Virus genome (UHGV): UHGV-0346646
Source: a virus
DNA: 11,385 nt
Strand: one strand, 5' to 3'
Shown here: one piece after another, positions 1 to 11,385 of the stretch
Layout: every line of letters starts with the position of its first letter
Numbering within the stretch: position 1 is the stretch's first letter
Notes under the pieces: model-generated
What the model saw: the letters and a program-made list of their open reading frames with translations, nothing else
What the model was told of the DNA's origin: nothing
Databases searched by the model: none
Position numbers and translations under genes: made by a program

Positions 1-642
1 CGCTTCCACGGCGTTATTGATTACGCGCTTGCTGAAAGTGGCCCTGTGCTCTGAATAGATCGCCACCATTTCGCGGCTAAGTTCCATTGTGCTGACCGGA
101 CACCATACCCCGCCGCGCCATACGTGAACGATTTCACTTTCAGGATGTACGCAAACGCCATCAAAGCGATCGGCAAGCAGCTGCGCGCGCTCACTGTCCG
201 CCATCTGCGAAAGTTGCGCCTTTTGCTTTACCGGAAGCTCAATGACCAGACCATCAGAAAGATTCTGGCGCTCACGGGCCAGATATTCGCGCCAGTTCTC
301 CACCTTCTGACCGTGCATACCATCAGGGTAAAAATTTGCATCCTGTACGCCTGCCGCCGCCAGCTTCTGGCCAATCGCCTTTATCATTACTGGCGCAAGA
401 TATCCGGCCCTGAATATGCGCACGGATTTTCTGCCTTCCGGCACAATTTGCAGCTTATCCAGTTCTGATAACTGCTGCTCCCCAAGCCACACAGGAGGCT
501 CATTATCTCCGGCCATACGCGCATCATGTTCCTGCCATTGTTTCGCGTGTGCCCAGGCATCACTACCCGCAAAAATAATGACTTCTGTTCCTTTGTGTTT
601 TATGCCGCGTGACTGCTGTTTTACGTTCGGTGCCAGTTTCAT
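1..642 (-). CDS. hypothetical protein, 5-prime part only (gene continues past window start)
   Basis: ATG at 642-640 overlaps the stop of the upstream gene (ATGA). Frame stays open for all 214 codons down to position 1; checked by hand translation (MKLAPNVKQQSRGIKHKGTEVIIFAGSDAWAHAKQW...VWRGGVWCPVSTMELSREMVAIYSEHRATFSKRVINNAVEA). Absent from the ORF track because it has no stop inside the window. Function not recognised. Confidence 0.5.
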   Translation of the reverse strand, partial: MKLAPNVKQQSRGIKHKGTEVIIFAGSDAWAHAKQWQEHDARMAGDNEPPVWLGEQQLSELDKLQIVPEGRKSVRIFRAGYLAPVMIKAIGQKLAAAGVQDANFYPDGMHGQKVENWREYLARERQNLSDGLVIELPVKQKAQLSQMADSERAQLLADRFDGVCVHPESEIVHVWRGGVWCPVSTMELSREMVAIYSEHRATFSKRVINNAVEA

Positions 643-938
643 TTTTTACCCCTGAATCCTTTAATCATGGTTTTCATCTTCTGAATATTGGCGCGTGCTT
701 TCTCCCTGCTGGTGGGCACGTTACGCGGTACGGCCTGCACAAGAGAAAAATCACGGTCGAACTGATAAACAGGCATCACGCAATCATATTCGTAGCCTTC
801 ACGACGGTAGGTTACGCGCCGTTCCTCCACGCCCTTAATCATTACCGTGCCGCCGTACTTATCGCGGTAAATATCACCGCGCATGAATTTAGTGCGAGTT
901 TTGCCACTGGCAGTTAAGCCAGAATATTTAAGTTTCAT
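639..938 (-). CDS. hypothetical protein (99 aa)
   Basis: ATG at 938-936 with GGAGAA upstream; stop overlaps the start of the next minus-strand gene (ATGA at 639-642). Part of a translationally coupled minus-strand operon. No recognisable motif. Confidence 0.5.
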   Translation of the reverse strand: MKLKYSGLTASGKTRTKFMRGDIYRDKYGGTVMIKGVEERRVTYRREGYEYDCVMPVYQFDRDFSLVQAVPRNVPTSREKARANIQKMKTMIKGFRGKK

Positions 939-943
939 TATTT

Positions 944-1177
944 TTATTCTCCGGTGTGGGGCGCTTTATACTGGTCGTGTAATGTCTCTATTTCCTGCAA
1001 CTCATTTATTACAGGCTCAAGAAGCGTTATTAATGCCGTGACAATCCTTGATTTCTGTTTATCACGTTCATTATCTCCAAGCGTTTCAAGACATATGCGC
1101 AATATTTCCAACATATTTTCACTGTGAGAAAGTGCAAGAAATGCGCGGTCTATTGTTTCGTGGTAAATATCACGCAT
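944..1177 (-). CDS. hypothetical protein (77 aa)
   Basis: ATG at 1177-1175 preceded by GGGGA; stop at 944-946 lies 5 nt before the next gene start. Protein-like composition. Confidence 0.5.
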   Translation of the reverse strand: MRDIYHETIDRAFLALSHSENMLEILRICLETLGDNERDKQKSRIVTALITLLEPVINELQEIETLHDQYKAPHTGE

Positions 1178-1178
1178 A

Positions 1179-1613
1179 TTAATCCCCGTCCGTCGTTTTT
1201 CTTAAAATAACCTCTGTCACGAAATCAGCATAATCGGCGGCGATATTCAGTACATCAAGCCCCGTTGATTTATATTCTCTCGTGGAAAGTAAGAAAAAAT
1301 CCGCTCTAATAAGCTCTGGCATTGACGAAAGCGCATCAGCCGCATCATCAGGAACGCCGGAAAATTCCTGTTTCAGGGAATTAAAACGATCATCACGCAT
1401 AACCCCCCCATTTTCACAATCAGCAACAAGAATATTTTTAGCGTCATTCAGCGACCGCGTTGCGATGTATCGGATACATTCCAGGGCGAACTGTGTCCGG
1501 TCTTTCTGTTCTTCTCCCTGCGCAAGCTCTGCCGTGCATTCAATATCAATAAGCGCGTGCATCAGCGTAGTGAGTGCGGCGGCGGCTGCGTCCGGTGTGG
1601 TTTTATTGCACAT
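1179..1613 (-). CDS. hypothetical protein (144 aa from the ATG at 1613; track ORF starts further upstream at 1667)
   Basis: Internal ATG at 1613 is preceded by GGAGGGG at good spacing; the 1667 start has no Shine-Dalgarno. Overlaps the stop of the upstream gene by 11 nt. Function not recognised. Confidence 0.5.
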   Translation of the reverse strand: MCNKTTPDAAAAALTTLMHALIDIECTAELAQGEEQKDRTQFALECIRYIATRSLNDAKNILVADCENGGVMRDDRFNSLKQEFSGVPDDAADALSSMPELIRADFFLLSTREYKSTGLDVLNIAADYADFVTEVILRKTTDGD

Positions 1614-1833
1614 GTACCCCTCCGCATTTTTTTTCGTTAGAAATAAGCGTTCTTCTTTCCTGTTCATCGCTCAGGAATACGCAGACCTCACCGCTAAGGC
1701 GTTTAAGTAAGCCGATGATTGCCCCTGATTCGCTGTCGGTCATCATGCCAGGGTAATCCTCTGCCAGTGCGCAAATAACTTCGATTTGGTGGGCGCGTTC
1801 TGCTGCCTGTTGTAGTGTGATTTCCTGGCTCAT
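1603..1833 (-). CDS. hypothetical protein (76 aa)
   Basis: ATG at 1833-1831 overlaps the stop of the upstream gene (ATGA); GGGGG upstream. Confidence 0.45.
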   Translation of the reverse strand: MSQEITLQQAAERAHQIEVICALAEDYPGMMTDSESGAIIGLLKRLSGEVCVFLSDEQERRTLISNEKKCGGVHVQ

Positions 1834-2030
1834 AAGCCTACCCCCTGACGAATACGGGCAGCAAATACCATCACGCAGCCAGCCGGAGATTGCTGGCGTG
1901 CTTCCTGTTCGCTGGTGGCCTCAATGGTAATCACGCGCGGTTGTGCCGTGCTCAGGGCGATAAAACGCCAGATGTATTTATTCAGGTTGTGCGAGTCCCG
2001 CCCTTGCGGGTGTGTGGTATGATTTAACAT
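1830..2030 (-). CDS. small protein (66 aa), possibly Icd-like; family assignment is tentative
   Basis: ATG at 2030-2028 with GAGG 5-6 nt upstream; first gene of the minus-strand operon, downstream of a strong predicted promoter. It is also the C-terminal 66 codons of the long track ORF 1830..3116, which I consider a read-through artefact. Confidence 0.5.
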   Translation of the reverse strand: MLNHTTHPQGRDSHNLNKYIWRFIALSTAQPRVITIEATSEQEARQQSPAGCVMVFAARIRQGVGL

Positions 2031-2067
2031 AGCTACCTCGATACTTTCGCTATCGTTGGTGGTTAGA

Positions 2068-2100
2068 AGCCCTGCGAGTGGTAACGACACTTGCGGGGCT
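2068..2100. promoter_or_regulatory. 13-bp-arm inverted repeat (AGCCCTGCGAGTG / CACTTGCGGGGCT, 7-nt loop) in the leader of the minus-strand operon
   Basis: Read directly: the arms pair fully if two G-U wobbles are allowed. Sits between the predicted minus-strand promoter and the start at 2030. Confidence 0.4.
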
Positions 2101-2127
2101 TTGCATTTATGCACCTTGATAATCTCA

Positions 2128-2168
2128 AGGTGTAGCCCACTATATGCTTTAGGTGTGGCCCACGTCAA
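2128..2168 (-). promoter_or_regulatory. predicted sigma70 promoter for the minus-strand small-gene operon, overlapped by two direct repeats (AGGTGTAGCCCAC 2128-2140 and AGGTGTGGCCCAC 2151-2163)
   Basis: On the minus strand: -35 TTGACG (2168-2163), 18-bp spacer, -10 TATAGT (2144-2139). The direct repeats overlap the spacer and the start site, as operator sites would. Confidence 0.4.
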
Positions 2169-2170
2169 GG

Positions 2171-2199
2171 GTTTTATTTGTGCTTTTTCTGTGTATACT
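2171..2199 (+). promoter_or_regulatory. possible promoter for the ribbon-helix-helix gene
   Basis: -10 TATACT at 2194-2199; the -35 is weak (GTTTTA region). Divergent from the minus-strand promoter. Confidence 0.3.
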
Positions 2200-2229
2200 G
2201 TCCCCCACCAATCCAACAGAGGAATAGAA

Positions 2230-2409
2230 ATGGCAACGGGTACAACAAACGCAAAATCACAAGCTCTAAAGGCTCGTGTACCACACGAAATAGTAAACGC
2301 CATGGAATCAGTGAAAGAATCAGGCGAAAGCACATCACAATTCATCATTGCGTCAATGCAAGGCGAGATCAAACGCCGCCAGCGCCGCAAGGCCAAAGAG
2401 CAGGAGTAA
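2230..2409 (+). CDS. ribbon-helix-helix (Arc/MetJ/CopG-like) DNA-binding protein, 59 aa
   Basis: ATG at 2230 with AGAGGAA Shine-Dalgarno. Protein MATGTTNAKSQALKARVPHEIVNAMESVKESGESTSQFIIASMQGEIKRRQRRKAKEQE has the strand-helix-helix pattern typical of RHH repressors. Followed by tandem plus-strand terminators. Confidence 0.6.
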   Translation: MATGTTNAKSQALKARVPHEIVNAMESVKESGESTSQFIIASMQGEIKRRQRRKAKEQE

Positions 2410-2466
2410 CCATCACCAGCGCCGTGGTGTGAGTAACTACGGCGCATTGCTATGCAGGACAACACA

Positions 2467-2640
2467 ATGACCGATAAAGAATTGACCAAAACATTATCAC
2501 CGGCACGGAAAAGACGGCGCAGAAAGATAGAGCATGAATCAGAAAGATTCGCGCCATGTGCTTTTGCCCTTGAGCAATTCCTTAAAGAGTACAGGGAAAA
2601 GCGCTCATTGCAGGTATGGCAACGAACTGAACCTGACTGA
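2467..2640 (+). CDS. possible small basic protein (57 aa)
   Basis: ATG at 2467 with a weak AGGA upstream; Lys/Arg-rich (SPARKRRRRK). Lies between the RHH gene and the plus-strand terminators. Weakly supported. Confidence 0.3.
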   Translation: MTDKELTKTLSPARKRRRRKIEHESERFAPCAFALEQFLKEYREKRSLQVWQRTEPD

Positions 2641-2719
2641 TTGCATTGCCCACCAGCCGCAAATGTGGCATTGTTGGCAATGCTCATGCGTTGGGGATAA
2701 CGTGTAGCTTGTGTCGAGG

Positions 2720-2748
2720 GGCCACCGTAGCGGGTGGCCTTTGTTTTG
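2720..2748 (+). terminator. rho-independent terminator
   Basis: Stem GGCCACC / GGTGGCC with loop GTAGCG, followed by TTTGTTTTG. Confidence 0.6.
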
Positions 2749-2843
2749 CCCGTTATTCGGCAATTGTGGCGCTTCTCCACATGGTTGATATAATCCCACT
2801 GCTCAGATTCATTTTTTGCGCAGTAGGTTAATTGTTCACAAAG

Positions 2844-2877
2844 GCGCTCCGGCAACGGGGCGCTTTTTGTTTTTATT
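2844..2877 (+). terminator. rho-independent terminator (second of a tandem pair)
   Basis: Stem GCGCTCCG / CGGGGCGC (one G-U) with loop GCAA, followed by TTTTTGTTTTTATT. Confidence 0.6.
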
Positions 2878-2882
2878 AGTTT

Positions 2883-3116
2883 GTAGAAACCTGACTCAGA
2901 GATAATGCTCATATTCTGATTGCCGTCAGGGGTGTAAGTTAAATTTACTCCCTTTTTATCATCAAACATCTGCAACGCTCTGGCGTTAACAATATTGGTT
3001 TCACTCCCGCCAGTAAGGCCGGAAATAACCGGAATAATTTCGGCAAAATTTTGCAGATTCTGTTTTTCAGGACGAACGAAGCCCCGCCCTTGTTCGGGAG
3101 AATATCCAGTATTCAT
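2883..3116 (-). CDS. BRO-N / antirepressor-like N-terminal domain ORF, probably truncated or degenerate
   Basis: First ~78 codons of track ORF 1830..3116 (…DDKKGVNLTYTPDGNQNMSIISESGFYKLI) resemble the C-terminal half of a BRO-N domain from memory. The similarity ends where the plus-strand terminator at 2844-2877 is encoded; the remaining ~350 codons have Cys/Trp/Arg-rich antisense-like composition. True end unknown. Confidence 0.3.
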
Positions 3117-3168
3117 GGTTAGATCTCTGTATTAGTGGATGGGTGGCGGCTGTGTGCCGCCAGCCTGA

Positions 3169-3357
3169 TTAGTGAACTGCCTCGCAGCTGTCCTTCCATG
3201 CCAGAACTTCGGATAAAGACCAGCCAACGGAACGACCGCCCAGCTTACGCCGTGATGGGAATTGTCCGGCTTTTTCCAGGTGGTACCGACATGAGCGGCT
3301 CAGGCCTGTAAGTTGCTGACATTCTTTTTCACGTATAAAGCGATCTGTGCTTAACAC
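3169..3357 (-). CDS. alpA: AlpA-family (prophage CP4-57-type) transcriptional regulator / excisionase-like HTH protein
   Basis: GTG start at 3357-3355 preceded by GGGGGA. Protein (…QQLTGLSRSCRYHLEKAGQFPSRRKLGGRSVGWSLSEVLAWK) matches the AlpA pattern TG.SR.T.Y…G.FP…KLG.RSVGW..SE…W. Sits next to the integrase, as in P4-like islands. Confidence 0.85.
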   Translation of the reverse strand: MLSTDRFIREKECQQLTGLSRSCRYHLEKAGQFPSRRKLGGRSVGWSLSEVLAWKDSCEAVH

Positions 3358-3640
3358 AATTCCCCCTTTGTTGTTTCTTAAAGAGTCATTGGGTGGATTA
3401 TTGGGTTGGGTTGTGTCGGATTGTGTCAGGGTGTTTGTGGAATGGCAAACACTGGCGGCGGTCGTTTTACAGAAGCAGGGGAAATGAGAATAAAAACTCT
3501 TTTAATTCATTATGATGCAAAGGCATAAAATTTTACTTTTACGCCTTTTTTACATATTTTTAAGAGTGATTCGCCAGTGTATAAAAAAACAGTACACCTA
3601 TAAAAATCAAATGGTTATTACGATGGCTGATTTTTAACCC

Positions 3641-3700
3641 GTTGTTCCATTTTGTTCCTTGTTGTTCGTCGTTGTGTCTCGTTGTTTCACGTTGTCCGCA
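3641..3700. repeat. cluster of short direct repeats (CGTTGTT/CGTTGTC units) between the integrase and alpA
   Basis: Read directly: gttgttccattttgttccttgttgttcgtcgttgtgtctcgttgtttcacgttgtcc. Related TTGTGTC units occur at 3400-3440. Confidence 0.5.
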
Positions 3701-3722
3701 TCCTGAAAAATCGCAAAAAAAA

Positions 3723-4970
3723 TTATATTTCTCTGGCTATTGGCAATGTGGTTACGTTTTCATGTGTTCCCGCCAGTATCCCTAACCGCTCCGTCCACAT
3801 ATCCAGCGCGTCACGTTTCGCATCCAGATAACGGGAATGGTTATAGACTCGTTGCATCCCTGGCATCTGATGACCTGTAAGCTGCTCCACGACGTGAGGA
3901 TCCACGCCTAAATCGTTCAGCATCGTTGTAAAGGTGCGCCGGATGTCATGCAGTGACCAGTGAGGGTGTTTTAGCCTCCTGTGCGCTAATCTGCCGTACT
4001 GCGACACGCTTGTTTCCTGTTTCACTTCCCCCAGCAATAAGCCCGTGTGCCTGTTCTGCTCCACCAGCTGCGTGACGAACGGCAGTATTGCTTCCGGTAT
4101 GGGCCGGAATATTGCCACCTTCGTTTTGCTGTGTTCTTTCGGCACGGTCCAGAGCATTTCGGTAAAATCCCACTCGCTGATCTCCGATAACCTCAGTTCT
4201 ACCGTCCGGCATCCGAAAACAATCAGGAGGCGGATTAGTGCGACGTAGTAAGGGGAAAATATTTTTTTGTCCAGTGCCTGCAATAATTCGCCAAGTTCTT
4301 TGGTGCTTAAGACGCGCTCGCTTATATCCGGTTTTTTCCCAACGTCCGCCACACTCATATCATCAAGAACGTTGCTGATTGCATAGCGCCGCCTCCGGCA
4401 GAACTTAAGCGCCTGTTTGCACGTCTGTAGCAAGAATCCGGCAGTAACAGGCGTTCGCTTTGCCACCTGGTCAAAACAGGCCAGCCAGTGCCGTAGCTCG
4501 CATTTATCCAGCGGCATAGCACCAATGTGCTGTATTACGTGATTATTAAGGCGCTTTTTCAGGGCGGCATAATCCACGCGGTTTTCCTTTGCGTACGACT
4601 CAAGCCAGTAGGTGAGCGCATCGCCAACCGTTACCGGCTTTAACGCTTCCTGTACGGTGTAATTCATTTCATGACGTGGATTTTTCCCCTCTGCCAGCCA
4701 TGCGCGACACTGGGCGGCTTTTTCCCTGGCTGATTTCAGGCTCAGATCAGGATAATTTCCCAGCTTAATGCGTTCCGGTGGTGCCCCCCTTCCCGTTCCG
4801 GCCCTGTAAGTGAAATACCAGGTTAAAAGGCCACTGGTTGAATGCCTGACGCTCAGGTTTCCACCGTCATTAAGAAAGGCTGTTTTTTGGGCGGGTGTGC
4901 CGTTGATTTTCCTCAGCTGTGTATCGCTCAGTTTGTTAAGTGCTCTGCTCATAATTTTGATTCCGGTCAT
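3723..4970 (-). CDS. int: P4-type tyrosine integrase (site-specific recombinase, phage integrase family)
   Basis: Conserved C-terminal catalytic region HDIRRTF…GHQMPGMQRVYNHSRYLD (H-x-x-R and catalytic Tyr context) and an N-terminal arm-binding-type region like P4/CP4-57 integrases. Start is ambiguous: GTG 4973, ATG 4970 or ATG 4952 (MSRALNKLSDTQ…). Confidence 0.9.
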   Translation of the reverse strand: MTGIKIMSRALNKLSDTQLRKINGTPAQKTAFLNDGGNLSVRHSTSGLLTWYFTYRAGTGRGAPPERIKLGNYPDLSLKSAREKAAQCRAWLAEGKNPRHEMNYTVQEALKPVTVGDALTYWLESYAKENRVDYAALKKRLNNHVIQHIGAMPLDKCELRHWLACFDQVAKRTPVTAGFLLQTCKQALKFCRRRRYAISNVLDDMSVADVGKKPDISERVLSTKELGELLQALDKKIFSPYYVALIRLLIVFGCRTVELRLSEISEWDFTEMLWTVPKEHSKTKVAIFRPIPEAILPFVTQLVEQNRHTGLLLGEVKQETSVSQYGRLAHRRLKHPHWSLHDIRRTFTTMLNDLGVDPHVVEQLTGHQMPGMQRVYNHSRYLDAKRDALDMWTERLGILAGTHENVTTLPIAREI

Positions 4971-4972
4971 CA

Positions 4973-5009
4973 CAATTAACTACACCATTAACTACACCGA
5001 TCGTTGCAC
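4973..5009. repeat. direct repeat copy 1 (contains tandem AACTACACC units), immediately upstream of and overlapping the integrase start
   Basis: caattaactacaccattaactacaccgatcgttgcac. A near-identical copy lies 234 bp away at 5207-5242; the flanks share a degenerate ACAACGTG-GAACAA motif. Confidence 0.7.
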
Positions 5010-5206
5010 AAAGGGCTACAACGTGAAACAAGCTGGAACAAGGAAAATCACAAATCTGTTTATAATCAAAAACATAATGAACAACCTGAAACATTATGAA
5101 ACGGCAAAAAACACTAATTGATAAAATATGTCCTTTTATCACTACATCAAGGCAAGCCATTGATTTAATTAAATGATTTGCACTGCAAAAAGTGCTAAAA
5201 ATCGCA

Positions 5207-5242
5207 AATTGACTACACCATTAACTACACCGATCGTTGCAC
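5207..5242. repeat. direct repeat copy 2 of the integrase-upstream repeat
   Basis: aattgactacaccattaactacaccgatcgttgcac; one mismatch against copy 1. Confidence 0.7.
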
Positions 5243-5451
5243 TGTATGAAACAACGTGGAACAAATAGACACAAGAAATATACAGGCGGGTCATCTTTCC
5301 AGGGGGAAGCGCGCCAATTCATGAGGGGCGTTAATGTCGATATGGGGATCCCCATAACGGGGCTACCTGGCTTTTTTCCGGTTAAATGTCAATCAGGCTG
5401 GTGGGTTTTACATACCCTTGATCACCGTAATGATGATCCAGATGTGCGCCT

Positions 5452-5507
5452 TTCCACCAATGGTGGAAAAGCCCACAGCAGGCCGCCCAGCCTCCCCCAA
5501 TGGGGGA
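5452..5507. repeat. pair of related GC-rich palindromes (TTCCACCAATGGTGGAA at 5452-5468; TCCCCCAATGGGGGA at 5493-5507)
   Basis: Read directly; centres 41 bp apart. A third palindrome, ATGGGGATCCCCAT, is at 5342-5355. Candidate protein-binding or recombination core sites in the non-coding junction. Confidence 0.5.
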
Positions 5508-5515
5508 TTGTGGAA

Positions 5516-5684
5516 GAATCAACGGGTTAGGCCTTAATGGGCTGCGTGGTAATTATCAGCATCCAGAATATGACGGGTTATGTTTCCGACCTCTTCAATT
5601 TGAGGTTCCCGAAAATATCAACGGGTTAGGCTGGTTTCCCCGATGTTCGCCGCTGGCGAATTTCGAAAATATCAACCAGTTACC
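5516..5684. repeat. three direct repeats of an ATCAAC(G/C)(G/A)GTTA(G/C)(G/C) unit (5516-5533, 5608-5632, 5662-5684)
   Basis: gaatcaacgggttaggcc; cccgaaaatatcaacgggttaggct; ttcgaaaatatcaaccagttacc. The last copy overlaps the stop of the 93-aa gene. Confidence 0.5.
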
Positions 5685-5961
5685 GCCGCAACCGCTCCGG
5701 CTTCTTCCAGTGGTACGTAATTTTCTCCGTTTCCCGATACAGTGCCACGCGGCGATTGTAGGCCAGCATTTCAAGAACGCGGATCCGTATGTTGCGCATA
5801 TCCACATCATTAAGCTGGATACCATTACGGCGAATCACCTCAGCAACCACACGAACATAATTTTCGGCGGTCACGCTGTCCGGCTGCGTGGTCTGTTCGT
5901 CGGCCTGCTGGCTGATTCCGGCAACGCGGCGGATTAATCGCAGTATTTCGGCTTCTGTCAT
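5680..5961 (-). CDS. hypothetical protein (93 aa), last gene of the packaging-side module
   Basis: ATG at 5961-5959 with GGGGG 5 nt upstream; the track ORF 5680..6159 extends upstream through the cos copy and is not credible there. Protein MTEAEILRLIRRVAGISQQ… has no recognised motif. Confidence 0.5.
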   Translation of the reverse strand: MTEAEILRLIRRVAGISQQADEQTTQPDSVTAENYVRVVAEVIRRNGIQLNDVDMRNIRIRVLEMLAYNRRVALYRETEKITYHWKKPERLRR

Positions 5962-5994
5962 TGTGCCCCCATCGTTCTGATAGTCTGGTGTCGT

Positions 5995-6066
5995 CGGGTC
6001 CTTCCTGGAATTATGGCCCGTTACGGGGCGGCGACCTCGCGCGTTTTCACTATTTATGAAAATTTT
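5995..6066 (+). other. lambda-type cos site, copy 1 (cosN with cohesive-end sequence GGGCGGCGACCT at 6026-6037)
   Basis: gttacgGGGCGGCGACCTcgcgcgttttcactatttatgaaaattttt is near-identical to the lambda genome junction (…GTTACG / GGGCGGCGACCTCGCGGGTTTTCGCTATTTATGAAAATTTTCCGG) as I remember it. Confidence 0.75.
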
Positions 6067-6075
6067 TCGGGATCC

Positions 6076-6172
6076 ATGTCCGGTTTCTCTGCAAGTTAAC
6101 CATATGAAAAATATAAAAACATGCTTTCCATGAACCGGACATGCGCAAAAAACAGACACTAAAACCGGACAT
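6076..6172 (+). promoter_or_regulatory. cosB-like repeats: ATGTCCGGTT (6076-6085, inverted), AT-rich spacer, AACCGGACAT (6134-6143) and AACCGGACAT (6163-6172)
   Basis: One inverted plus two direct 10-bp sites with an A/T-rich stretch between the inverted pair, paralleling lambda cosB (R3 - IHF site I1 - R2 - R1). Lies directly after cosN copy 1. Confidence 0.5.
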
Positions 6173-6240
6173 CGAACCAGTTAACCGAAAGTGTGCACAA
6201 ATCACATGCATTGCTGCGAGTGATTAACAAGTTATCGGCT

Positions 6241-6675
6241 TTACTGTTCTGTATCGGCTGATTGCTCCATGCTGGCACGGCGAACGCTTACGGCATGACG
6301 CCACCCAGCCAGAAAGCCAGCCATTTTATTTCGTGCCTTGCTCACATCTTCCGGTGAATAGCCGTAAATCTGCAAACCTTCATCAAATCGATGTTCTGTT
6401 TCTTCACTGGAGTACTCGTCACGCTCAGATGAAAGCAGCCTGGCAAACATAATTTTTTCCAGCGCACTGGTTTCTACGTGATATCTGATGGCCTCAAGAC
6501 GGCTTTTACCTGAAGACCAAAGCAATGTATGCCCGATGTGATAACCGCCAGACTTTCCGCGATCCGCATTAAGATACGGCATCCCCTGTTTGGTCCATGC
6601 GCGAATAGTGGTTCTGTTAACCTTGAAATGTTCAGCTATTTCCTGCTGACTTACAAAACAAGCTTTATCAATCAT
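6241..6675 (-). CDS. lambda Nu1-like small terminase-type protein (N-terminal winged-HTH DNA-binding domain), 144 aa
   Basis: ATG at 6675. N-terminus VSQQEIAEHFKVNRTTIRAWTKQGMPYLNADRGKSGGYHIGHTLLW aligns by eye with lambda Nu1 KKQLADIFGASIRTIQNWQEQGMPVLRGGGKGNEVLYDSAAVIKW. Shorter than Nu1 (181 aa). Lies about 90 bp downstream (minus strand) of cosN copy 2. Confidence 0.7.
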   Translation of the reverse strand: MIDKACFVSQQEIAEHFKVNRTTIRAWTKQGMPYLNADRGKSGGYHIGHTLLWSSGKSRLEAIRYHVETSALEKIMFARLLSSERDEYSSEETEHRFDEGLQIYGYSPEDVSKARNKMAGFLAGWRHAVSVRRASMEQSADTEQ

Positions 6676-6744
6676 AATGTTACCTTAACTGCATGGTTAA
6701 ATATTAATCAAGTGGTGGTGGTGTCACCTTCACGGAAAAACGTC

Positions 6745-6807
6745 ATAAATAGCGAAAACCCGCGAGGTCGCCGCCCCGTAACGGGCCATAATTCCAGGAA
6801 GGACCCG
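6745..6807 (-). other. lambda-type cos site, copy 2, inverted relative to copy 1 (cohesive-end sequence at 6765-6776 read on the minus strand)
   Basis: Reverse complement reads cgggtccttcctggaattatggcccgttacgGGGCGGCGACCTcgcgggttttcgctatttatg; 47 bp are identical to copy 1 and about 70 bp match with two mismatches. Confidence 0.75.
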
Positions 6808-6808
6808 T

Positions 6809-6830
6809 AAAAAAGCCGGATTTCTCCGGC
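6809..6830 (-). terminator. rho-independent terminator ending the capsid operon
   Basis: Minus-strand hairpin GCCGGA-GAAA-TCCGGC followed by TTTTTT, just after the stop at 6837. Confidence 0.65.
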
Positions 6831-6836
6831 CTTGTC

Positions 6837-7250
6837 TCAGATGGTTTTCAGTATGCGATCGATGTCGCCGTCATCGCCCTGGTTTCTGCCATCGTATGCC
6901 ATGCCAGCTGATACGGCTTGCGGGCTGTGCATGTCCATAAAGTTTTCAAAGGCTGCGGTAAGCTCTGGTGCAACCTTTGGGCGCTCCTGCTCTATGGTCA
7001 TGTTCAGGATTTCACGAGCATTATCGACGCTAATACATGGCACGTTTGCCATTGCACGTAACAGCGGCTGATAGTCTTTATGCTCATGAAGCGCCATAAT
7101 CGCATCAGCGCGCGGCTTGTCCTGCTCTTCCAGTTTGTTTAGTTGATATACGGCCTCATAGGTTGATAAACCTCTGTCAGCCATTGCCCGCGCTTCGGCT
7201 TTAAATTTACTCGCCAGCGGTAGCGTCATGATGCTTTCATTCGTTGCCAT
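6837..7250 (-). CDS. hypothetical protein (137 aa), last gene of the capsid operon; possible scaffold-like or capsid accessory protein (speculative)
   Basis: ATG at 7250 with GGGGG 5 nt upstream; predicted helix-rich and acidic. Function not recognised. Confidence 0.55.
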   Translation of the reverse strand: MATNESIMTLPLASKFKAEARAMADRGLSTYEAVYQLNKLEEQDKPRADAIMALHEHKDYQPLLRAMANVPCISVDNAREILNMTIEQERPKVAPELTAAFENFMDMHSPQAVSAGMAYDGRNQGDDGDIDRILKTI

Positions 7251-7262
7251 CGTTCCCCCTGC

Positions 7263-7598
7263 TTATCGGGCCAGCGGCTGAACGGATACGCCGGAACCCG
7301 CAAAGGCGGCGCATTTTTTCGCATCGGTGTCGACGCTCTCAGGCCAGTTAACGGCGGCAATATTGAATATCCCCGTCTTGTAACACTGTGCTGATTTCTG
7401 CTTTGACGTGTCCACAGGGTACGAGGTCAGATAAACAGCCTTGCCAGATTCCTGACCATCCCACGGCTTAAACTCGCCATTGTCCGCCAGCATCAGCGGG
7501 GTAAATTCCTGAATAACGCCAGCATCAGCGGCAAAATGTACCAGCGTCGTGGCGACCTGCTGACTGCCTGCAAATAACTCAATGTATGGAGTGTCCAT
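7263..7598 (-). CDS. head decoration protein, lambda gpD family
   Basis: TPLMLADNGEFKPWDG…YKTGIFNIAAVNWPES…AKKCAAFAGSGVSV aligns by eye with lambda gpD TPLMLDTSSRKLVAWDG…YKSGTFRYEDVLWPEA…TKKRTAFAGTAISI. Similar length (111 vs 110 aa). GGGGG Shine-Dalgarno. Confidence 0.8.
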   Translation of the reverse strand: MDTPYIELFAGSQQVATTLVHFAADAGVIQEFTPLMLADNGEFKPWDGQESGKAVYLTSYPVDTSKQKSAQCYKTGIFNIAAVNWPESVDTDAKKCAAFAGSGVSVQPLAR

Positions 7599-7609
7599 AG
7601 AATCCCCCG

Positions 7610-8665
7610 TTAACCAATTTTGACGGTAACAAATTTGCGAATATCTGCCGGAACCGGCTGCGGTGCGCTGTGCGTCTGCACGTACTCAATCGCCGGATCG
7701 CCGTCCTCAATCCAGTTTTTCGGGTAAAACATGTTTTGCGTTGCGCCCGTTCTTACTGCGTCCTGATCCATAATCGCACCATAGGCCACCAGCCCTTTAT
7801 TGTTGGTGTTGCCCAGGACAAGCAAATCAGGCTCAAGGAAATATTTTTCTGTGCCGTCGCTGTCAGTGTATTTGCCGGAATAGACGATAAGGGCAATATC
7901 GCCCAGATAGCCTTTAAAGCTCACCACTTCGCCCAGGTTTTTACAGGCCAGCTCTGCGGCGGACTCTGAACCACGGGAAAGATCGTACAGCTCACGGAAT
8001 TTTTTAAAGCTGCGTAACGTTCGCCATACCTCAGCGCCCATAATCATGACGTTTGCGGGGCAACCAGCCTGATCGGCGTATAGTTCGATATCATAGATTG
8101 GATCGTGGGTTTCTTTGTCCTGCTCTGACCATTTTTTCCCGTCGGCCTGCTCTATGATGTTTTTTTCCGGTATCTTCCAGTCGATTTCATAGCGCTCTAT
8201 GCCTTCGCCTTCAATGATGTTTTTTCCGGTCGTTACCGCATTTACCGCCAGCCATTCCACGCGCGCTTTTATGGCGTTTATCTGGCGGCGCATATTGCCA
8301 GTAATCAGGCGCATACGGCGATAGGTAGGGTCGTTAAGCTGTGCCGGATCTTCTCCAGCCATGCGCATGATGGTTTTCGTTGGATCGATTTCGTGCTTTG
8401 GCTTCATGTAGCCAGGTTTAATCGTGCTGGTTTCGTACCCTTTATCGCGCTGAACCTGGCTACCCACCATAGGCGAACAAAACGCCGACATGGTGACTTC
8501 TTCAATGTCCAGGGTATCCAGCATGATGTTTTGCGTGCTGAATGTCGCCACGTTCGGGAAAAACAGCGTGGTAAACAGCGGACTGAATTTAAATTCCGCA
8601 ATATCCCCGCGATTCAGGTACGCAAAAAGCTGGTTAGTGTTAAGTGCCATTGCTTTTACTGTCAT
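7610..8665 (-). CDS. major capsid protein, lambda gpE family
   Basis: 351 aa with FKFSPLFTTLFF, PGYMKPKHE, DPTYRRMR, SFKGYLGDIALIVYSG, YPKNW and GDPAIE motifs matching lambda gpE (FKFDPLFLRLFF, PGYVKPKHE, DPAYRRRR, SYKGMYGDVAIVVYSG, YPKNW, GDPARE) at the same relative positions. Confidence 0.9.
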   Translation of the reverse strand: MTVKAMALNTNQLFAYLNRGDIAEFKFSPLFTTLFFPNVATFSTQNIMLDTLDIEEVTMSAFCSPMVGSQVQRDKGYETSTIKPGYMKPKHEIDPTKTIMRMAGEDPAQLNDPTYRRMRLITGNMRRQINAIKARVEWLAVNAVTTGKNIIEGEGIERYEIDWKIPEKNIIEQADGKKWSEQDKETHDPIYDIELYADQAGCPANVMIMGAEVWRTLRSFKKFRELYDLSRGSESAAELACKNLGEVVSFKGYLGDIALIVYSGKYTDSDGTEKYFLEPDLLVLGNTNNKGLVAYGAIMDQDAVRTGATQNMFYPKNWIEDGDPAIEYVQTHSAPQPVPADIRKFVTVKIG

Positions 8666-8871
8666 TATTCACCCCCGTGAACCTGATTCATACCCAGCGC
8701 CGCGCGTAAATAGGCGCGTACCTGCCAGCCTGTTGACGGCTCAACCATCGCCAGCGGATCAAGTCCTGCCGCAATGCCTGCTTTTACGTTCTGCTGGTGG
8801 CGTTCCTTGAGCGCCTTCACGATGTCGGGGCTTATGTACACCGAAACACCGCCTTTTTTCTCTTCAGCCAT
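8665..8871 (-). CDS. hypothetical protein (68 aa), first gene of the capsid operon
   Basis: ATG at 8871; stop overlaps the capsid gene start by 1 nt (TAATG). Shine-Dalgarno spacing is long (AGAGGA ~12 nt upstream), so the start is uncertain. Confidence 0.45.
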   Translation of the reverse strand: MAEEKKGGVSVYISPDIVKALKERHQQNVKAGIAAGLDPLAMVEPSTGWQVRAYLRAALGMNQVHGGE

Positions 8872-8904
8872 AGTAAGAAATTCCTCTTTGACTTAAAAAA
8901 TCAT

Positions 8905-8953
8905 AACTGGATGTTCATCCAGCTCTGATTATAATCATGATTGCATTTTGTGC
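8905..8953 (-). promoter_or_regulatory. predicted capsid-operon promoter with overlapping palindromes
   Basis: Minus strand: -35 TTGCAC (8953-8948), 16-bp spacer, -10 TATAAT (8931-8926) inside the palindrome GATTATAATC. The perfect inverted repeat CTGGATG-TT-CATCCAG (8905-8920) lies at about +1 to +16. Confidence 0.4.
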
Positions 8954-9036
8954 AATGATGTTGAGTTGCGTTGCAAATTATGAAATGATTATCCCGATCA
9001 TGTGTGTCAGTGCACCAAAAAGCCTCATATGCAAAA

Positions 9037-9073
9037 GCCCGATAAGCCACCTCTGACCTTATCGGGCTTTTTT
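9037..9073. terminator. orphan terminator-like hairpin in the 415-bp intergenic region
   Basis: GCCCGATAAG - 11-nt loop - CTTATCGGGC followed by TTTTTT on the plus strand (AAAA precedes it). No obvious plus-strand gene upstream. Confidence 0.35.
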
Positions 9074-9248
9074 ATCTGCCTGCAAAGATGTCGAACGAAA
9101 ATTAACCACAACCATCATCTTTTTTGCATCAAAACAATTAAAAACAATAAATTACGCTCATGATGATGATGACGATAAAATCACAAAAATGCGCTTTTTT
9201 CCGCGCCTCCCGCCCCGTGTTCAGGCCCACCCCGCCAGGAGGACCCGT

Positions 9249-9271
9249 AAAAAAGCCGGATTGCTCCGGCT
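9249..9271 (-). terminator. rho-independent terminator after the SSB gene
   Basis: Minus-strand hairpin AGCCGGA-GCAA-TCCGGCT followed by TTTTTT. Sequence is near-identical to the terminator module at 6791-6840. Confidence 0.6.
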
Positions 9272-9286
9272 TCTGTCTCTCGTCGC

Positions 9287-9709
9287 TTAAAACGGTATGT
9301 TATCCCCGTACGGATCATCATTCCCCGCCTGTTGTTTTGCCCTGTTCAGCGCGTCAGTAGCCTGGCCCTGTTGACCTTTTTTGCCGCCCAGTCGCGCCGT
9401 TCGCGCACTGATTACACTGTCTGCGATAACCTGCCAGCCCTGCCGCGTTTCTCCGTTCTGCCCAGTCCACTGGCTGATCTGCATGTTACCCGCCACGCTC
9501 AGGAGTTCACCCTTGCGGTGCCTTTCCAGTGCTTCGGCCTGTCTGCCAAATGCCAGGACGGATAACCACATCGTCGCCGTTCCGTCATCTGCCTGGCTGC
9601 ACGGAAGGGGGACCGCCATACGCGCCAGCGTCATCGGTGTGCCCTTGCTGGTCTGTTTTACCTGCGGGTCGTCCACCAGCCGCCCGTAAGCTGCTATCTG
9701 TGCTGTCAT
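9287..9709 (-). CDS. ssb: single-stranded DNA-binding protein (SSB, OB-fold)
   Basis: Aligns by eye with E. coli SSB: G.L..DP.V, W..V..FG..AE, RKG, W.G..G..R. C-terminal acidic tail ends NDDPYGDNIPF (compare SSB …DFDDDIPF). GAGGTGG Shine-Dalgarno. Confidence 0.75.
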   Translation of the reverse strand: MTAQIAAYGRLVDDPQVKQTSKGTPMTLARMAVPLPCSQADDGTATMWLSVLAFGRQAEALERHRKGELLSVAGNMQISQWTGQNGETRQGWQVIADSVISARTARLGGKKGQQGQATDALNRAKQQAGNDDPYGDNIPF

Positions 9710-9765
9710 GATTCCACCTCTCCGGTTTTAACGTTGATGGTTGTTACCTGTTCCGCTTCGGCAAT

Positions 9766-9984
9766 CTACCGCTCTGTCAGCGTGGCAAAATTTGCCGCCG
9801 TCGTGGTCATGAATGCGCTTATCAGTTCGGGATGTGCTTTCGCGTATCCTTCCCCCGCGTGGCGGTCTATCGTTCTGATTGCCACCTTTAAAGCGTGCTC
9901 TGTCATGTCTAACGCGCGATATTTCGGTTCTGTTCTGTCTCTGCGTTTTTTGAGTGATTTATTAAATTTCCCTGAAGTGTGCAT
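9766..9984 (-). CDS. hypothetical small protein (72 aa or shorter from an internal Met)
   Basis: ORF between the origin and ssb; the Shine-Dalgarno is poorly placed, so the start is uncertain. Confidence 0.4.
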   Translation of the reverse strand: MHTSGKFNKSLKKRRDRTEPKYRALDMTEHALKVAIRTIDRHAGEGYAKAHPELISAFMTTTAANFATLTER

Positions 9985-10033
9985 ATTTATTTTTACCCCC
10001 TCGTTTAAAAAGTTTTGAGTTGTGCCTCCCCTT

Positions 10034-10259
10034 GTCTACCTTATCTACCTTAGTGGCCCTCATGCCAGTAATGGCGCGGCTTTCAGCGGGGTAGAGTGCT
10101 TTTATCCACTATCTACCCCGTGTCTACCTCCCTGTCTGATTCAGGTAAAATCAGGTAGAGAGGGTAGATAGTGGGTAGACAGTAAAAAAAGGCTATCTAC
10201 CTAACTTAATGCACTGAATTAAATGTATTTTTCTTTACTCAGGTAGACAGGGTAGACAG
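10034..10259. repeat. iteron cluster, putative replication origin (about 11 copies of GGTAGA(C/G/T)AG in both orientations)
   Basis: TCTACC at 10035, 10044, 10112, 10123 and 10196; GGTAGA at 10089, 10154, 10163, 10174, 10242 and 10251. Immediately downstream of the primase/helicase stop at 10273. Confidence 0.7.
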
Positions 10260-10272
10260 CAATTACAAAAAA

Positions 10273-11385
10273 TTATAAAAACGCGTCGCACTCGTCTGTT
10301 GTTATTGCGTTAGTCTGCGTTACCCCCTTAACTTTCCGCGTAATATATTCATGTCCGTAAACTTTTGCGGCAGGCTTCATAGCCTTTCCAAAGTCATTTA
10401 CGTTTAGCGGTTTGCTCCTGCCTGCGTATGCCATAAACGCCAGATAGACGCGGTAAAGGCTGTTCCTGGTCGTGTACTTCACTGAATCGCCACCGCCCCC
10501 CATCATCAGGCCGCGCGCTTCCTCCAGAAAATTCAGGAACTGGCAAAACTCAATAACCGGATCCGTCTGTTGCTTTATTGCCAGTGCTTCATCACCGTCA
10601 CGCTGTTCCAGTAGTAAAGCCCGTGCCTTCTCAGGGTCGGTAAAGTTCGCCAGCAATCGGCGGATAATGACAGGGATTTCAGCCGCGATCTTTTCCGGTA
10701 GCTCCCTGTCTTTTTCGGCCTCACTGACGATATTGTCGAAACGGAAAATCACGCGACGACGTGCCACACCTCCGGCCCGTTCGGTGAATATCATCGGGTT
10801 ATTGTTGGTCGCCAGCACCACCGCCCTGATTACAGCCGTGAAACGCTTTTCGTATTTCGGGTTAATTTCCACGGGGTCACCGCCCGTGATTTTCTTGATG
10901 CCCGTTCCTTCGCCTGTATATTTCGGCTGGTCAGCCAGGACGATAAGACGACTCCCGACAACCTGCGCACGTCCACCAGCATCATCAAGCGATGTCATTT
11001 CAGCGCTTACCGTGTTCTGTTTCCCTGCCAGAAGGCTGGCTATGTGCGTGAATGTACTTTTACCGCTCCCGCCGTCTCCGGTGGCCTCAATAAACATCTG
11101 CCAGTCGTACCGGTTCGCCATAATCATGTACAGCGCGGCACATATACGCATCATCTTGCGCGGGTCTTTTCCGGCTGCGTGCTCAAGCCATTTATGAAAG
11201 TTTGGCGCGTTATCGCGGATGTTCTCCCCTGGTGCTGGTGGCGTGTACTCAATGCCGTTGTGCGTGGTGATCCAGTTCTCCGGCGTGTGCGGGGAAAATC
11301 CCCCCGTTTTCAGGTCAAGCGCACCATTGGCGAACGGCAGCAAATCGCCGGACGGCTCGCCCATTGGTTCGGCAATAACTTTTAA
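10273..11385 (-). CDS. P4-family phage/plasmid primase C-terminal region with D5_N-like and SF3 helicase (P-loop) domains; 3-prime part only (start lies beyond window end)
   Basis: Walker A GDGGSGKST; upstream D5_N-like LLPFANGALDLKTGGFSPHTPENWIT; Walker B-like LIVLADQ. The frame is open upstream of the first in-window Met to position 11385, so the gene starts outside the window. Confidence 0.85.
   Translation of the reverse strand, partial: LKVIAEPMGEPSGDLLPFANGALDLKTGGFSPHTPENWITTHNGIEYTPPAPGENIRDNAPNFHKWLEHAAGKDPRKMMRICAALYMIMANRYDWQMFIEATGDGGSGKSTFTHIASLLAGKQNTVSAEMTSLDDAGGRAQVVGSRLIVLADQPKYTGEGTGIKKITGGDPVEINPKYEKRFTAVIRAVVLATNNNPMIFTERAGGVARRRVIFRFDNIVSEAEKDRELPEKIAAEIPVIIRRLLANFTDPEKARALLLEQRDGDEALAIKQQTDPVIEFCQFLNFLEEARGLMMGGGGDSVKYTTRNSLYRVYLAFMAYAGRSKPLNVNDFGKAMKPAAKVYGHEYITRKVKGVTQTNAITTDECDAFL

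What the first reader, a model, noticed from the sequence alone, without database searches (positions are those of the whole stretch)
6241..6675. Nu1-like protein may be a small terminase or a helper-terminase mimic
Only the N-terminal winged-HTH region resembles lambda Nu1; the protein is shorter (144 vs 181 aa) and the C-terminus looks different. No large terminase gene is present in the module. E. coli PICIs are known to redirect helper packaging with a protein that partners helper TerS, so this protein could act that way.
Basis: partly seen in the sequence, partly recalled or inferred. Interest (0 to 1): 0.55.

Follow-up and report, generated by a model that had tools for sequence, protein, structure and literature searches.

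The report
Known PICI packaging hijacker RppA

Summary
The ORF at 6241-6675 (minus strand, 144 aa) is real. Its product is 100% identical to the CFT073 protein at the position of c1503, which is RppA of the island EcCICFT073 (Fillol-Salom et al. 2019, Mol Cell). Only the N-terminal winged-HTH region resembles lambda Nu1. The protein as a whole matches the solved RppC structure (6HLK, E=5e-31, residues 2-125). The window is a circular permutation of the complete 11.4-kb island and contains no large terminase. The gene is preceded by the island's cos1 site, with the ATG at bp 102 from cosN, and followed by the inverted cos2 site. Both sites are published. For this exact protein, experiments have shown the mechanism: an Rpp dimer binds the helper TerS DNA-binding domain, the heterocomplex ignores phage cosB and recognises the cos1 cosB, and helper TerL comes in through TerS. 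The "helper-terminase mimic" reading is therefore supported and the "autonomous small terminase" reading is not. Novelty: already known. Interest: low. One side observation may be new. cos2 is a near-copy of the complete cosQ-cosN-cosB of a distinct lambdoid prophage family (TerS WP_000235436.1, phage PhiR12_1). This could explain why the island carries two cos sites.

The parts
6241..6675 (-). rppA (c1503 homologue): 144-aa Rpp protein. N-terminal wHTH DNA-binding domain of about residues 1-64, then a C-terminal helical dimerisation domain.
   Evidence: ORF. 100% identical to CFT073 WP_000565609.1. RppC structure 6HLK at E=5e-31 over residues 2-125. Paper sequence and primers match.
6712..6811 (-). 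cos1: cosQ-like 6811->6797, cosN 12-mer GGGCGGCGACCT 6776->6765, and the proposed Rpp-recognised cosB/R3-PICI at bp 48-65 = 6729->6712 (AGGTGACACCACCACCAC). The rppA ATG is at bp 102 from the first base of the cohesive end.
   Evidence: Sequence. cosN position. Matches the 'EcCICFT073 cos1' sequence of Figure S1A. R3-PICI proposal from PMC9026076. cosB part identical to CFT073.
5991..6177 (+). cos2, inverted relative to cos1: cosQ-like 5991-6005, cosN 6026-6037, and a phage-type cosB with three ATGTCCGG repeats at 6076 (+), 6135 (-) and 6165 (-).
   Evidence: Sequence. Repeat positions. Matches 'EcCICFT073 cos2' of Figure S1A. 93% identical over 179 bp to the cos region upstream of Nu1 of phage PhiR12_1. 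Same arrangement in prophages of strains EC2 and 2015C-3163.
6809..6833 (-). Terminator-like hairpin (GCCGGAGAAATCCGGC + T-run) between the 137-aa gene and cos1.
   Evidence: Sequence. Fold -18.3 kcal/mol, z=-3.4. Not listed by the consensus scan.
6837..7250 (-). 137-aa protein resembling the C-terminal (Nu3/scaffold-like) end of lambdoid head maturation protease. Island gene upstream of cos1.
   Evidence: phrog_1999 at E=3.7e-65. phrog_53 positions 495-567 of 583 at E=1.7e-10.
7263..7598 (-). Lambda gpD-like head decoration protein (c1500 homologue).
   Evidence: Pfam HDPD at 1.3e-17. PMC6092414.
7610..8665 (-). Lambda gpE-like major capsid protein (c1499 homologue).
   Evidence: Pfam Phage_cap_E at 2e-52. 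PMC6092414.
5124..5133 (.). att core AAATATGTCC. This is the junction of the two island ends and shows that the window is the circularised or permuted island.
   Evidence: blastn of the window against HM670. Window 5124-11385 and 1-5133 map to adjacent stretches with a 10-bp overlap, and the same 10-mer occurs at both chromosomal junctions.
3723..4973 (-). Island tyrosine integrase.
   Evidence: Pfam Arm-DNA-bind_3 plus Phage_integrase.
3169..3357 (-). AlpA, the PICI activator.
   Evidence: Pfam Phage_AlpA at 9e-18. PMC6092414.
10273..11385 (-). C-terminal part of the pri-rep primase/helicase. The gene wraps round the window ends, and its 5' part is at 642->1.
   Evidence: Pfam DUF5906/D5_N/Pox_D5. 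phrog_864. 585-aa frame across the junction in the doubled window.

Best explanation
The ORF encodes RppA, the 'redirecting phage packaging' protein of an EcCICFT073-type phage-inducible chromosomal island. Rpp is a homodimer held together by its C-terminal helices. Its N-terminal winged-HTH domain mimics the DNA-binding domain of a lambda-type TerS (gpNu1) and pairs with it in place of the second TerS domain. The resulting Rpp-TerS heterocomplex no longer recognises the phage cosB, so phage packaging is blocked. It does recognise the island's own cosB in cos1, immediately upstream of rppA. The TerS C-terminus still brings in the helper TerL, which cuts the lambda-like cosN and packages island DNA into helper capsids. 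Shown here: identity of the protein, the domain limits of the Nu1 resemblance, the cos1-rppA-cos2 anatomy, and the absence of an element-encoded terminase. Taken from published experiments on the identical protein: TerS binding, interference, cos1 specificity and the requirement for transfer. Still inferred in the literature: recruitment of TerL through TerS, and the exact Rpp binding site (R3-PICI, bp 48-65).
For: 100% identity over 144 aa to CFT073 WP_000565609.1 at the syntenic position: capsid c1499, decoration c1500, 137-aa gene, then this gene. The sequence printed for RppA in Figure S1 and the c1503 primers match the window. The paper gives RppA as 144 residues, with R21-T22, L51 and F121 as functional residues. 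All are present, and R21, T22 and F121 are invariant in 16 homologues. phmmer against the PDB gives RppC 6HLK/6HN7 at E=5.3e-31 over residues 2-125, and the lambda Nu1 DBD only at E about 0.1 over residues 6-57. The only significant Foldseek hit is 6HLK. cos1 with lambda-identical cosN lies upstream, with the ATG at bp 102, and the cos1 cosB is identical to CFT073. There is no TerL or full-length TerS anywhere in the complete island. Published experiments: c1503 expression blocks lambda and phi80, escape mutants map to TerS, two-hybrid and pull-down assays show binding, the RppC-TerS co-crystal was solved, deleting rppA lowers transfer, and RppA raises cos1-plasmid transfer while lowering phage-cos transfer.
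Against: Nothing substantive. The AlphaFold model is low-confidence (mean pLDDT 54), so the fold comparison adds little to the sequence evidence. Murialdo and Feiss list RppA as 135 residues in one figure legend, against 144 in the primary paper and here. This looks like a discrepancy in that review. This island variant differs from CFT073 in the cosQ-to-cosN part of cos1, and its packaging has not itself been tested.
Confidence: 0.96

Rival explanations
1. It is the island's own autonomous small terminase, which replaces helper TerS and binds helper TerL directly, as pac-type SaPIs do.
For: The N-terminal wHTH resembles TerS DNA-binding domains (PHROG 57; 1J9I). The gene sits just downstream of a cos site, as Nu1 does in lambda.
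Against: The similarity stops at about residue 57. There is no counterpart of the C-terminal oligomerisation and TerL-binding region conserved between lambdoid TerS proteins. There is no Pfam Phage_Nu1 hit. A phi80 terS deletion abolishes island transfer, and TerS mutants that cannot bind Rpp transfer the island poorly.
Confidence: 0.02
2. It is only an interference decoy that sequesters TerS and has no positive role in island packaging.
For: Expression alone blocks lambda and phi80 plaque formation.
Against: Deleting rppA lowers island transfer. RppA increases transfer of cos1 plasmids and of a phi80 chimera carrying the cos1 cosB. The R21A/T22A mutant keeps interference but loses the promotion of packaging.
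Confidence: 0.01
3. It is a MerR/excisionase-type HTH transcription regulator of the island.
Against: All Pfam hits are below the gathering thresholds. The protein is identical to RppA, whose packaging role is demonstrated experimentally. The island's regulator is AlpA.
Confidence: 0.01

Closest known systems
RppA (c1503) of EcCICFT073, E. coli CFT073 (Fillol-Salom et al. 2019, Mol Cell 75:1020)
   Same: Amino-acid sequence identical over all 144 residues. Same gene order, same cos1 cosB and same cos2.
   Different: The surrounding island is a variant, 98-99% identical over most of its length and about 91% in part of the primase/SSB region, with a short segment missing. Its cos1 cosQ-to-cosN segment differs from CFT073 and equals that of cos2.
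RppC of EcCIEC2733.1 (PDB 6HLK; complex with lambda TerS 1-98, 6HN7)
   Same: Homologous over residues 2-125 (E=5e-31, about 40-44% identity). Same wHTH plus helical dimerisation layout, and six predicted helices with a long C-terminal helix.
   Different: RppC is 153 aa, binds lambda TerS more tightly and does not heterodimerise with RppA. The dimer-interface residues are poorly conserved.
Lambda gpNu1 (TerS), Pfam Phage_Nu1 / PHROG 57
   Same: Winged-HTH DNA-binding domain in the first 55 or so residues, and position immediately downstream of cosN-cosB.
   Different: 144 aa against 181 aa. The C-terminal oligomerisation and TerL-binding region is absent. The DNA-contact residues and the cosB target differ. 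It works only as a partner of TerS.
SaPI Ppi plus SaPI TerS (Staphylococcus aureus pac islands)
   Same: A satellite-encoded function that blocks helper TerS and favours satellite packaging.
   Different: SaPIs use two proteins: their own TerS, and Ppi as a blocker. Rpp does both jobs with one protein and has no sequence relationship to them (established knowledge).

Membership tests
Rpp (redirecting phage packaging) proteins of Gram-negative cos PICIs | Sequence homology to RppA/RppB/RppC over both domains | tested here: met
   100% identical to CFT073 RppA. RppC 6HLK at E=5.3e-31 over residues 2-125. An 83%-identical 146-aa homologue corresponds to RppB.
Rpp (redirecting phage packaging) proteins of Gram-negative cos PICIs | N-terminal winged-HTH resembling the TerS DNA-binding domain, with conserved DNA-contact residues (R21, T22, R25, K29, K41) | tested here: met
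   PHROG 57 over residues 7-47. 1J9I and 6HN7_B over residues 6-57. R21, T22, R25, K29 and K41 are invariant in 16 homologues.
Rpp (redirecting phage packaging) proteins of Gram-negative cos PICIs | C-terminal helical dimerisation domain ending in a long helix (F121 in RppA), and no TerL-binding domain | tested here: met
   F121 is invariant. Predicted helices at 71-85, 91-103 and 108-143, from a low-confidence model. No similarity to the TerS C-terminal region.
Rpp (redirecting phage packaging) proteins of Gram-negative cos PICIs | Encoded in a PICI (int, alpA, pri-rep) next to a cos site that has lambda-like cosQ/cosN and a non-phage cosB, with no element terminase | tested here: met
   Complete island in the window. 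cos1 lies upstream with the ATG at bp 102. No TerL.
Rpp (redirecting phage packaging) proteins of Gram-negative cos PICIs | Binds helper TerS, blocks phage packaging and promotes cos1-dependent island packaging | not testable with these tools
   Shown experimentally for the identical protein in PMC6739421. Not re-testable in silico.
Lambda-type small terminase (gpNu1, Pfam Phage_Nu1) | Full-length homology, including the C-terminal self-assembly and TerL-binding region | tested here: not met
   No Phage_Nu1 hit in Pfam. The PHROG 57 match covers profile positions 12-52 of 199 only. BLASTP against a lambdoid TerS gives only an HTH-level match at E=0.05.
Lambda-type small terminase (gpNu1, Pfam Phage_Nu1) | Encoded next to, and working with, a cognate large terminase gene | tested here: not met
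   No TerL anywhere in the circularised element.

The most novel reading that the evidence does not exclude
The protein itself offers no novelty. The most novel reading not excluded concerns its flanks. The rppA gene sits between two inverted cos sites that may work as two different 'keys'. cos1 needs Rpp to capture lambda/phi80/21-type terminases. cos2 is a near-exact copy of the complete cosQ-cosN-cosB of a different lambdoid prophage family (TerS WP_000235436.1, phage PhiR12_1 type), including its three R-like ATGTCCGG repeats. That copy could let the family's unmodified terminase package the island directly, in the opposite direction and without Rpp. [quoted passage not shown] I found no paper in the held library that makes this link.
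Probability: 0.35. Interest if true: 0.35.

Novelty: already known. Interest (0 to 1): 0.1.

Why it matters
Rpp is how Gram-negative cos-type PICIs both interfere with lambdoid helper phages and spread themselves and their cargo. Recognising the gene correctly matters for annotation, because RefSeq still labels it 'hypothetical protein' and no Pfam family covers it. It adds no new biology, since the identical protein has been characterised genetically and its homologue RppC structurally. The modest added value is the cos2 observation. It gives a concrete, testable candidate for the helper family served by the second cos site.

Tried and rejected
AlphaFold2 on a 16-sequence alignment gave a poor model (mean pLDDT 54). 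Foldseek still ranked 6HLK first (E=2.7e-5) but with TM 0.34, so I rely on the sequence-level match instead.
(2) Tandem-element reading. I first took the second integrase/AlpA in the left half of the window for a second element in tandem. I rejected this once the window was shown to be a circular permutation of one island.
(3) cos2 as a phage-21-type cos. Only cosN and the following 50 or so bp match phage 21. The 21 R boxes (ATGTCGG-type) are similar but not the same as the cos2 repeats (ATGTCCGG). The PhiR12-type TerS shares only its C-terminal half with 21 gp1.
(4) CFT073's resident helper as the source of cos2. CFT073 has the cos2-type cosB only once, inside the island.
(5) Promoter scan around rppA. 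Three sigma-70-like matches against 1.7 expected, which is not informative.
(6) Homologue search. It returned only 17 proteins, all unnamed.

Full report
**Observation.** The ORF listing gives an ATG-initiated ORF of 144 aa at 6241-6675 on the minus strand. Pfam finds only sub-threshold generic HTH matches over residues 6-45 and no Phage_Nu1 match. PHROGs gives 'terminase small subunit' (phrog_57, E=3.9e-8), but only for residues 7-47 against profile positions 12-52 of 199. Against PDB sequences, the lambda gpNu1 DNA-binding domain (1J9I; 6HN7 chain B) aligns only to residues 6-57, at E about 0.1.

**Identity.** The region 5600-9000 is 98.0% identical to E. coli CFT073 and 99.9% identical to several other strains. 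In CFT073 the syntenic gene encodes WP_000565609.1, annotated 'hypothetical protein', which is 100% identical to the window protein over all 144 residues.

Fillol-Salom et al. 2019 (PMC6739421) identified c1503 of the island EcCICFT073 as the inhibitor of lambda and named it RppA, of 144 residues. Several checks tie that gene to this ORF:
- Figure S1 of the paper prints the RppA sequence (MIDKACFVSQ QEIAEHFKVN RTTIRAWTKQ GMPYLNADRG KSGGYHIGHT...), which equals ours.
- The c1503 mutagenesis primers match the window DNA.
- The gene order agrees with the 2018 ISME J paper, in which c1499 is the capsid homologue and c1500 the decoration homologue.
- The residues mutated in the paper (R21-T22, L51, F121) are present, and R21, T22 and F121 are invariant in 16 homologues.
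- phmmer against the PDB returns RppC (6HLK/6HN7) at E=5.3e-31 over residues 2-125.

An AlphaFold2 model was of low confidence (mean pLDDT 54). It shows six helices with a long C-terminal helix, as in RppC. Its only significant Foldseek hit in the PDB is 6HLK.

**Context.** The whole window maps to one 11,395-bp stretch of strain HM670 in two pieces. Window 5124-11385 and window 1-5133 are adjacent in the chromosome and share a 10-bp overlap, AAATATGTCC, which also occurs at both chromosomal junctions. The window is therefore the complete island in circularly permuted (excised) form, cut inside the primase gene.

Reading the minus strand, the island carries:
- pri-rep (wrapping round the window ends)
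- SSB
- a 68-aa gene
- a lambda gpE-like capsid protein
- a gpD-like decoration protein
- a 137-aa protein like the C-terminal (Nu3/scaffold) end of the head protease
- a terminator-like hairpin
- cos1
- rppA
- cos2
- a 93-aa gene
- att
- int
- alpA and small genes

No ORF matches a terminase family. The only frames of 250 aa or more in the doubled window are primase, integrase, capsid and one spurious frame. tblastn with a lambdoid TerL or TerS finds nothing better than E=0.49.

**cos sites.** Upstream of rppA on the minus strand lies a lambda-like cosQ (6811->6797) and the 12-mer GGGCGGCGACCT (6776->6765). A cosB region follows that is unlike lambda's, and the rppA ATG is at bp 102 from the first base of the cohesive end. 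This sequence equals 'EcCICFT073 cos1' of Figure S1A. Murialdo and Feiss 2022 (PMC9026076) propose that the Rpp-binding R3-PICI element lies at bp 48-65, which is window 6729->6712, AGGTGACACCACCACCAC.

Downstream of rppA, on the plus strand, is a second cos (cosN 6026-6037). It equals 'EcCICFT073 cos2'. The two form a 78-nt inverted repeat that is 91% complementary. Both sites are published. cos1 is required for lambda- and phi80-mediated transfer and is the one RppA promotes. Deleting cos2 increases transfer.

**Mechanism.** All the functional steps come from published experiments on the identical protein or on RppC:
- Expression of c1503 blocks lambda and phi80 but not HK97.
- Escape mutants map to TerS (for example E65K).
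- Two-hybrid and pull-down assays show Rpp-TerS binding and Rpp homodimers.
- In the RppC-TerS(1-98) crystal, the Rpp DNA-binding domain occupies the place of the second TerS DNA-binding domain.
- Deleting rppA, or using TerS escape mutants, reduces island transfer.
- RppA lowers transfer of phage-cos plasmids and raises transfer of cos1 plasmids, and swapping cosB regions moves this specificity.
- R21A/T22A keeps interference but loses the promotion of packaging.
- A phi80 terS deletion abolishes island transfer.

Recruitment of TerL through the free TerS C-terminus is the authors' inference. What I showed here is that the window encodes this protein and these sites, and that nothing else in the element could supply terminase.

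**Rivals.** The autonomous-TerS reading fails on domain content and on the published helper terS-deletion result. A pure decoy role fails on the separation-of-function mutant. A transcription-regulator role rests only on sub-threshold HTH hits.

**Side observation: cos2.** The 2019 paper states that no phage cosB could be identified in either island cos site, and it asks why some PICIs have two cos sites.
- cos2 from cosQ to the third repeat (window about 5994-6172) is 93% identical over 179 bp to the DNA immediately upstream of Nu1 and A in phage PhiR12_1 and its relatives.
- The cosB part alone (6062-6182) occurs in 226 of 5426 complete E. coli genomes.
- The two more divergent copies I inspected (98% identical over 111 bp, and 89%) lie in lambdoid prophages about 45 bp upstream of terS WP_000235436.1 (169 aa) and terL.
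- The octamer ATGTCCGG occurs only three times in the window: at 6076 (+), 6135 (-) and 6165 (-). That is about bp 51, 110 and 140 from cosN, an R3/R2/R1-like layout.
- It resembles the phage 21 R boxes (ATGTCGG-type) but is not the same.
- The PhiR12-type TerS shares only its C-terminal half with 21 gp1.
- CFT073 itself has this cosB only inside the island.

So cos2 looks like the native cos of a third lambdoid terminase specificity group. It may allow Rpp-independent packaging by such helpers. This is untested.

**Minor variant feature.** In this window the cosQ-to-cosN segment of cos1 differs from CFT073 cos1 at about eight positions and is identical to cos2. This suggests sequence exchange between the two inverted sites. 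The cos1 cosB is unchanged.

**Verdict.** The feature is the already characterised RppA, so novelty is 'already known' and interest is low.

Noticed in passing
window 5991-6177 (+); L003 (PhiR12_1) 3001-3179; L005 and L006 3001-3119: cos2 of the island is a near-copy (93% over 179 bp) of the complete cosQ-cosN-cosB of a lambdoid phage/prophage family whose TerS is WP_000235436.1. It has three ATGTCCGG R-like repeats at R3/R2/R1-like spacing. The published papers describe the island cosB sequences as unlike phage cosB and leave open why there are two cos sites. cos2 may be a direct, Rpp-independent packaging signal for that helper family.
   Followed up: partly
window 6730-6807 (-) versus 5995-6072 (+); CFT073 L001 about 10130-10215: The cosQ-to-cosN segment of cos1 in this island variant is identical to that of cos2 but differs from CFT073 cos1 at about eight positions. 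This creates a 78-nt, 91% inverted repeat flanking rppA, consistent with gene conversion between the two inverted cos sites.
   Followed up: partly
window 1-11385; junction 5124-5133: The window is a circular permutation of the complete 11.4-kb island, joined at a 10-bp att core (AAATATGTCC) and linearised inside the primase gene. It therefore represents the excised or circular form, not the chromosomal arrangement between roxA and phoQ.
   Followed up: yes
window 6837-8665 (-): The island carries a partial lambda-type head module without portal, protease or terminase: a gpE-like capsid protein, a gpD-like decoration protein, and a 137-aa protein matching only the C-terminal (Nu3/scaffold-like) end of the head maturation protease (phrog_53 positions 495-567 of 583). 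Published deletions of the capsid and decoration genes had no phenotype, and the role of the module is unexplained.
   Followed up: no
window 6809-6833 (-): A strong hairpin followed by a T-run (-18.3 kcal/mol, z=-3.4) sits between the 137-aa gene and cosQ of cos1. If it terminates transcription, rppA may be transcribed separately from the upstream capsid-like genes. The consensus terminator scan did not list it.
   Followed up: partly
window 9073-9381 versus CFT073 L001 12475-12869: This island variant lacks the segment that in CFT073 holds a PerC-family regulator gene. It is also only about 91% identical to CFT073 across the SSB/primase region, whereas the rest of the island is 98-99% identical.
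   Followed up: no
PMC9026076, Figure 3 legend: The review gives RppA as 135 residues. The primary paper and the ORF here give 144. There is no internal Met that would yield 135 aa.
   Followed up: no
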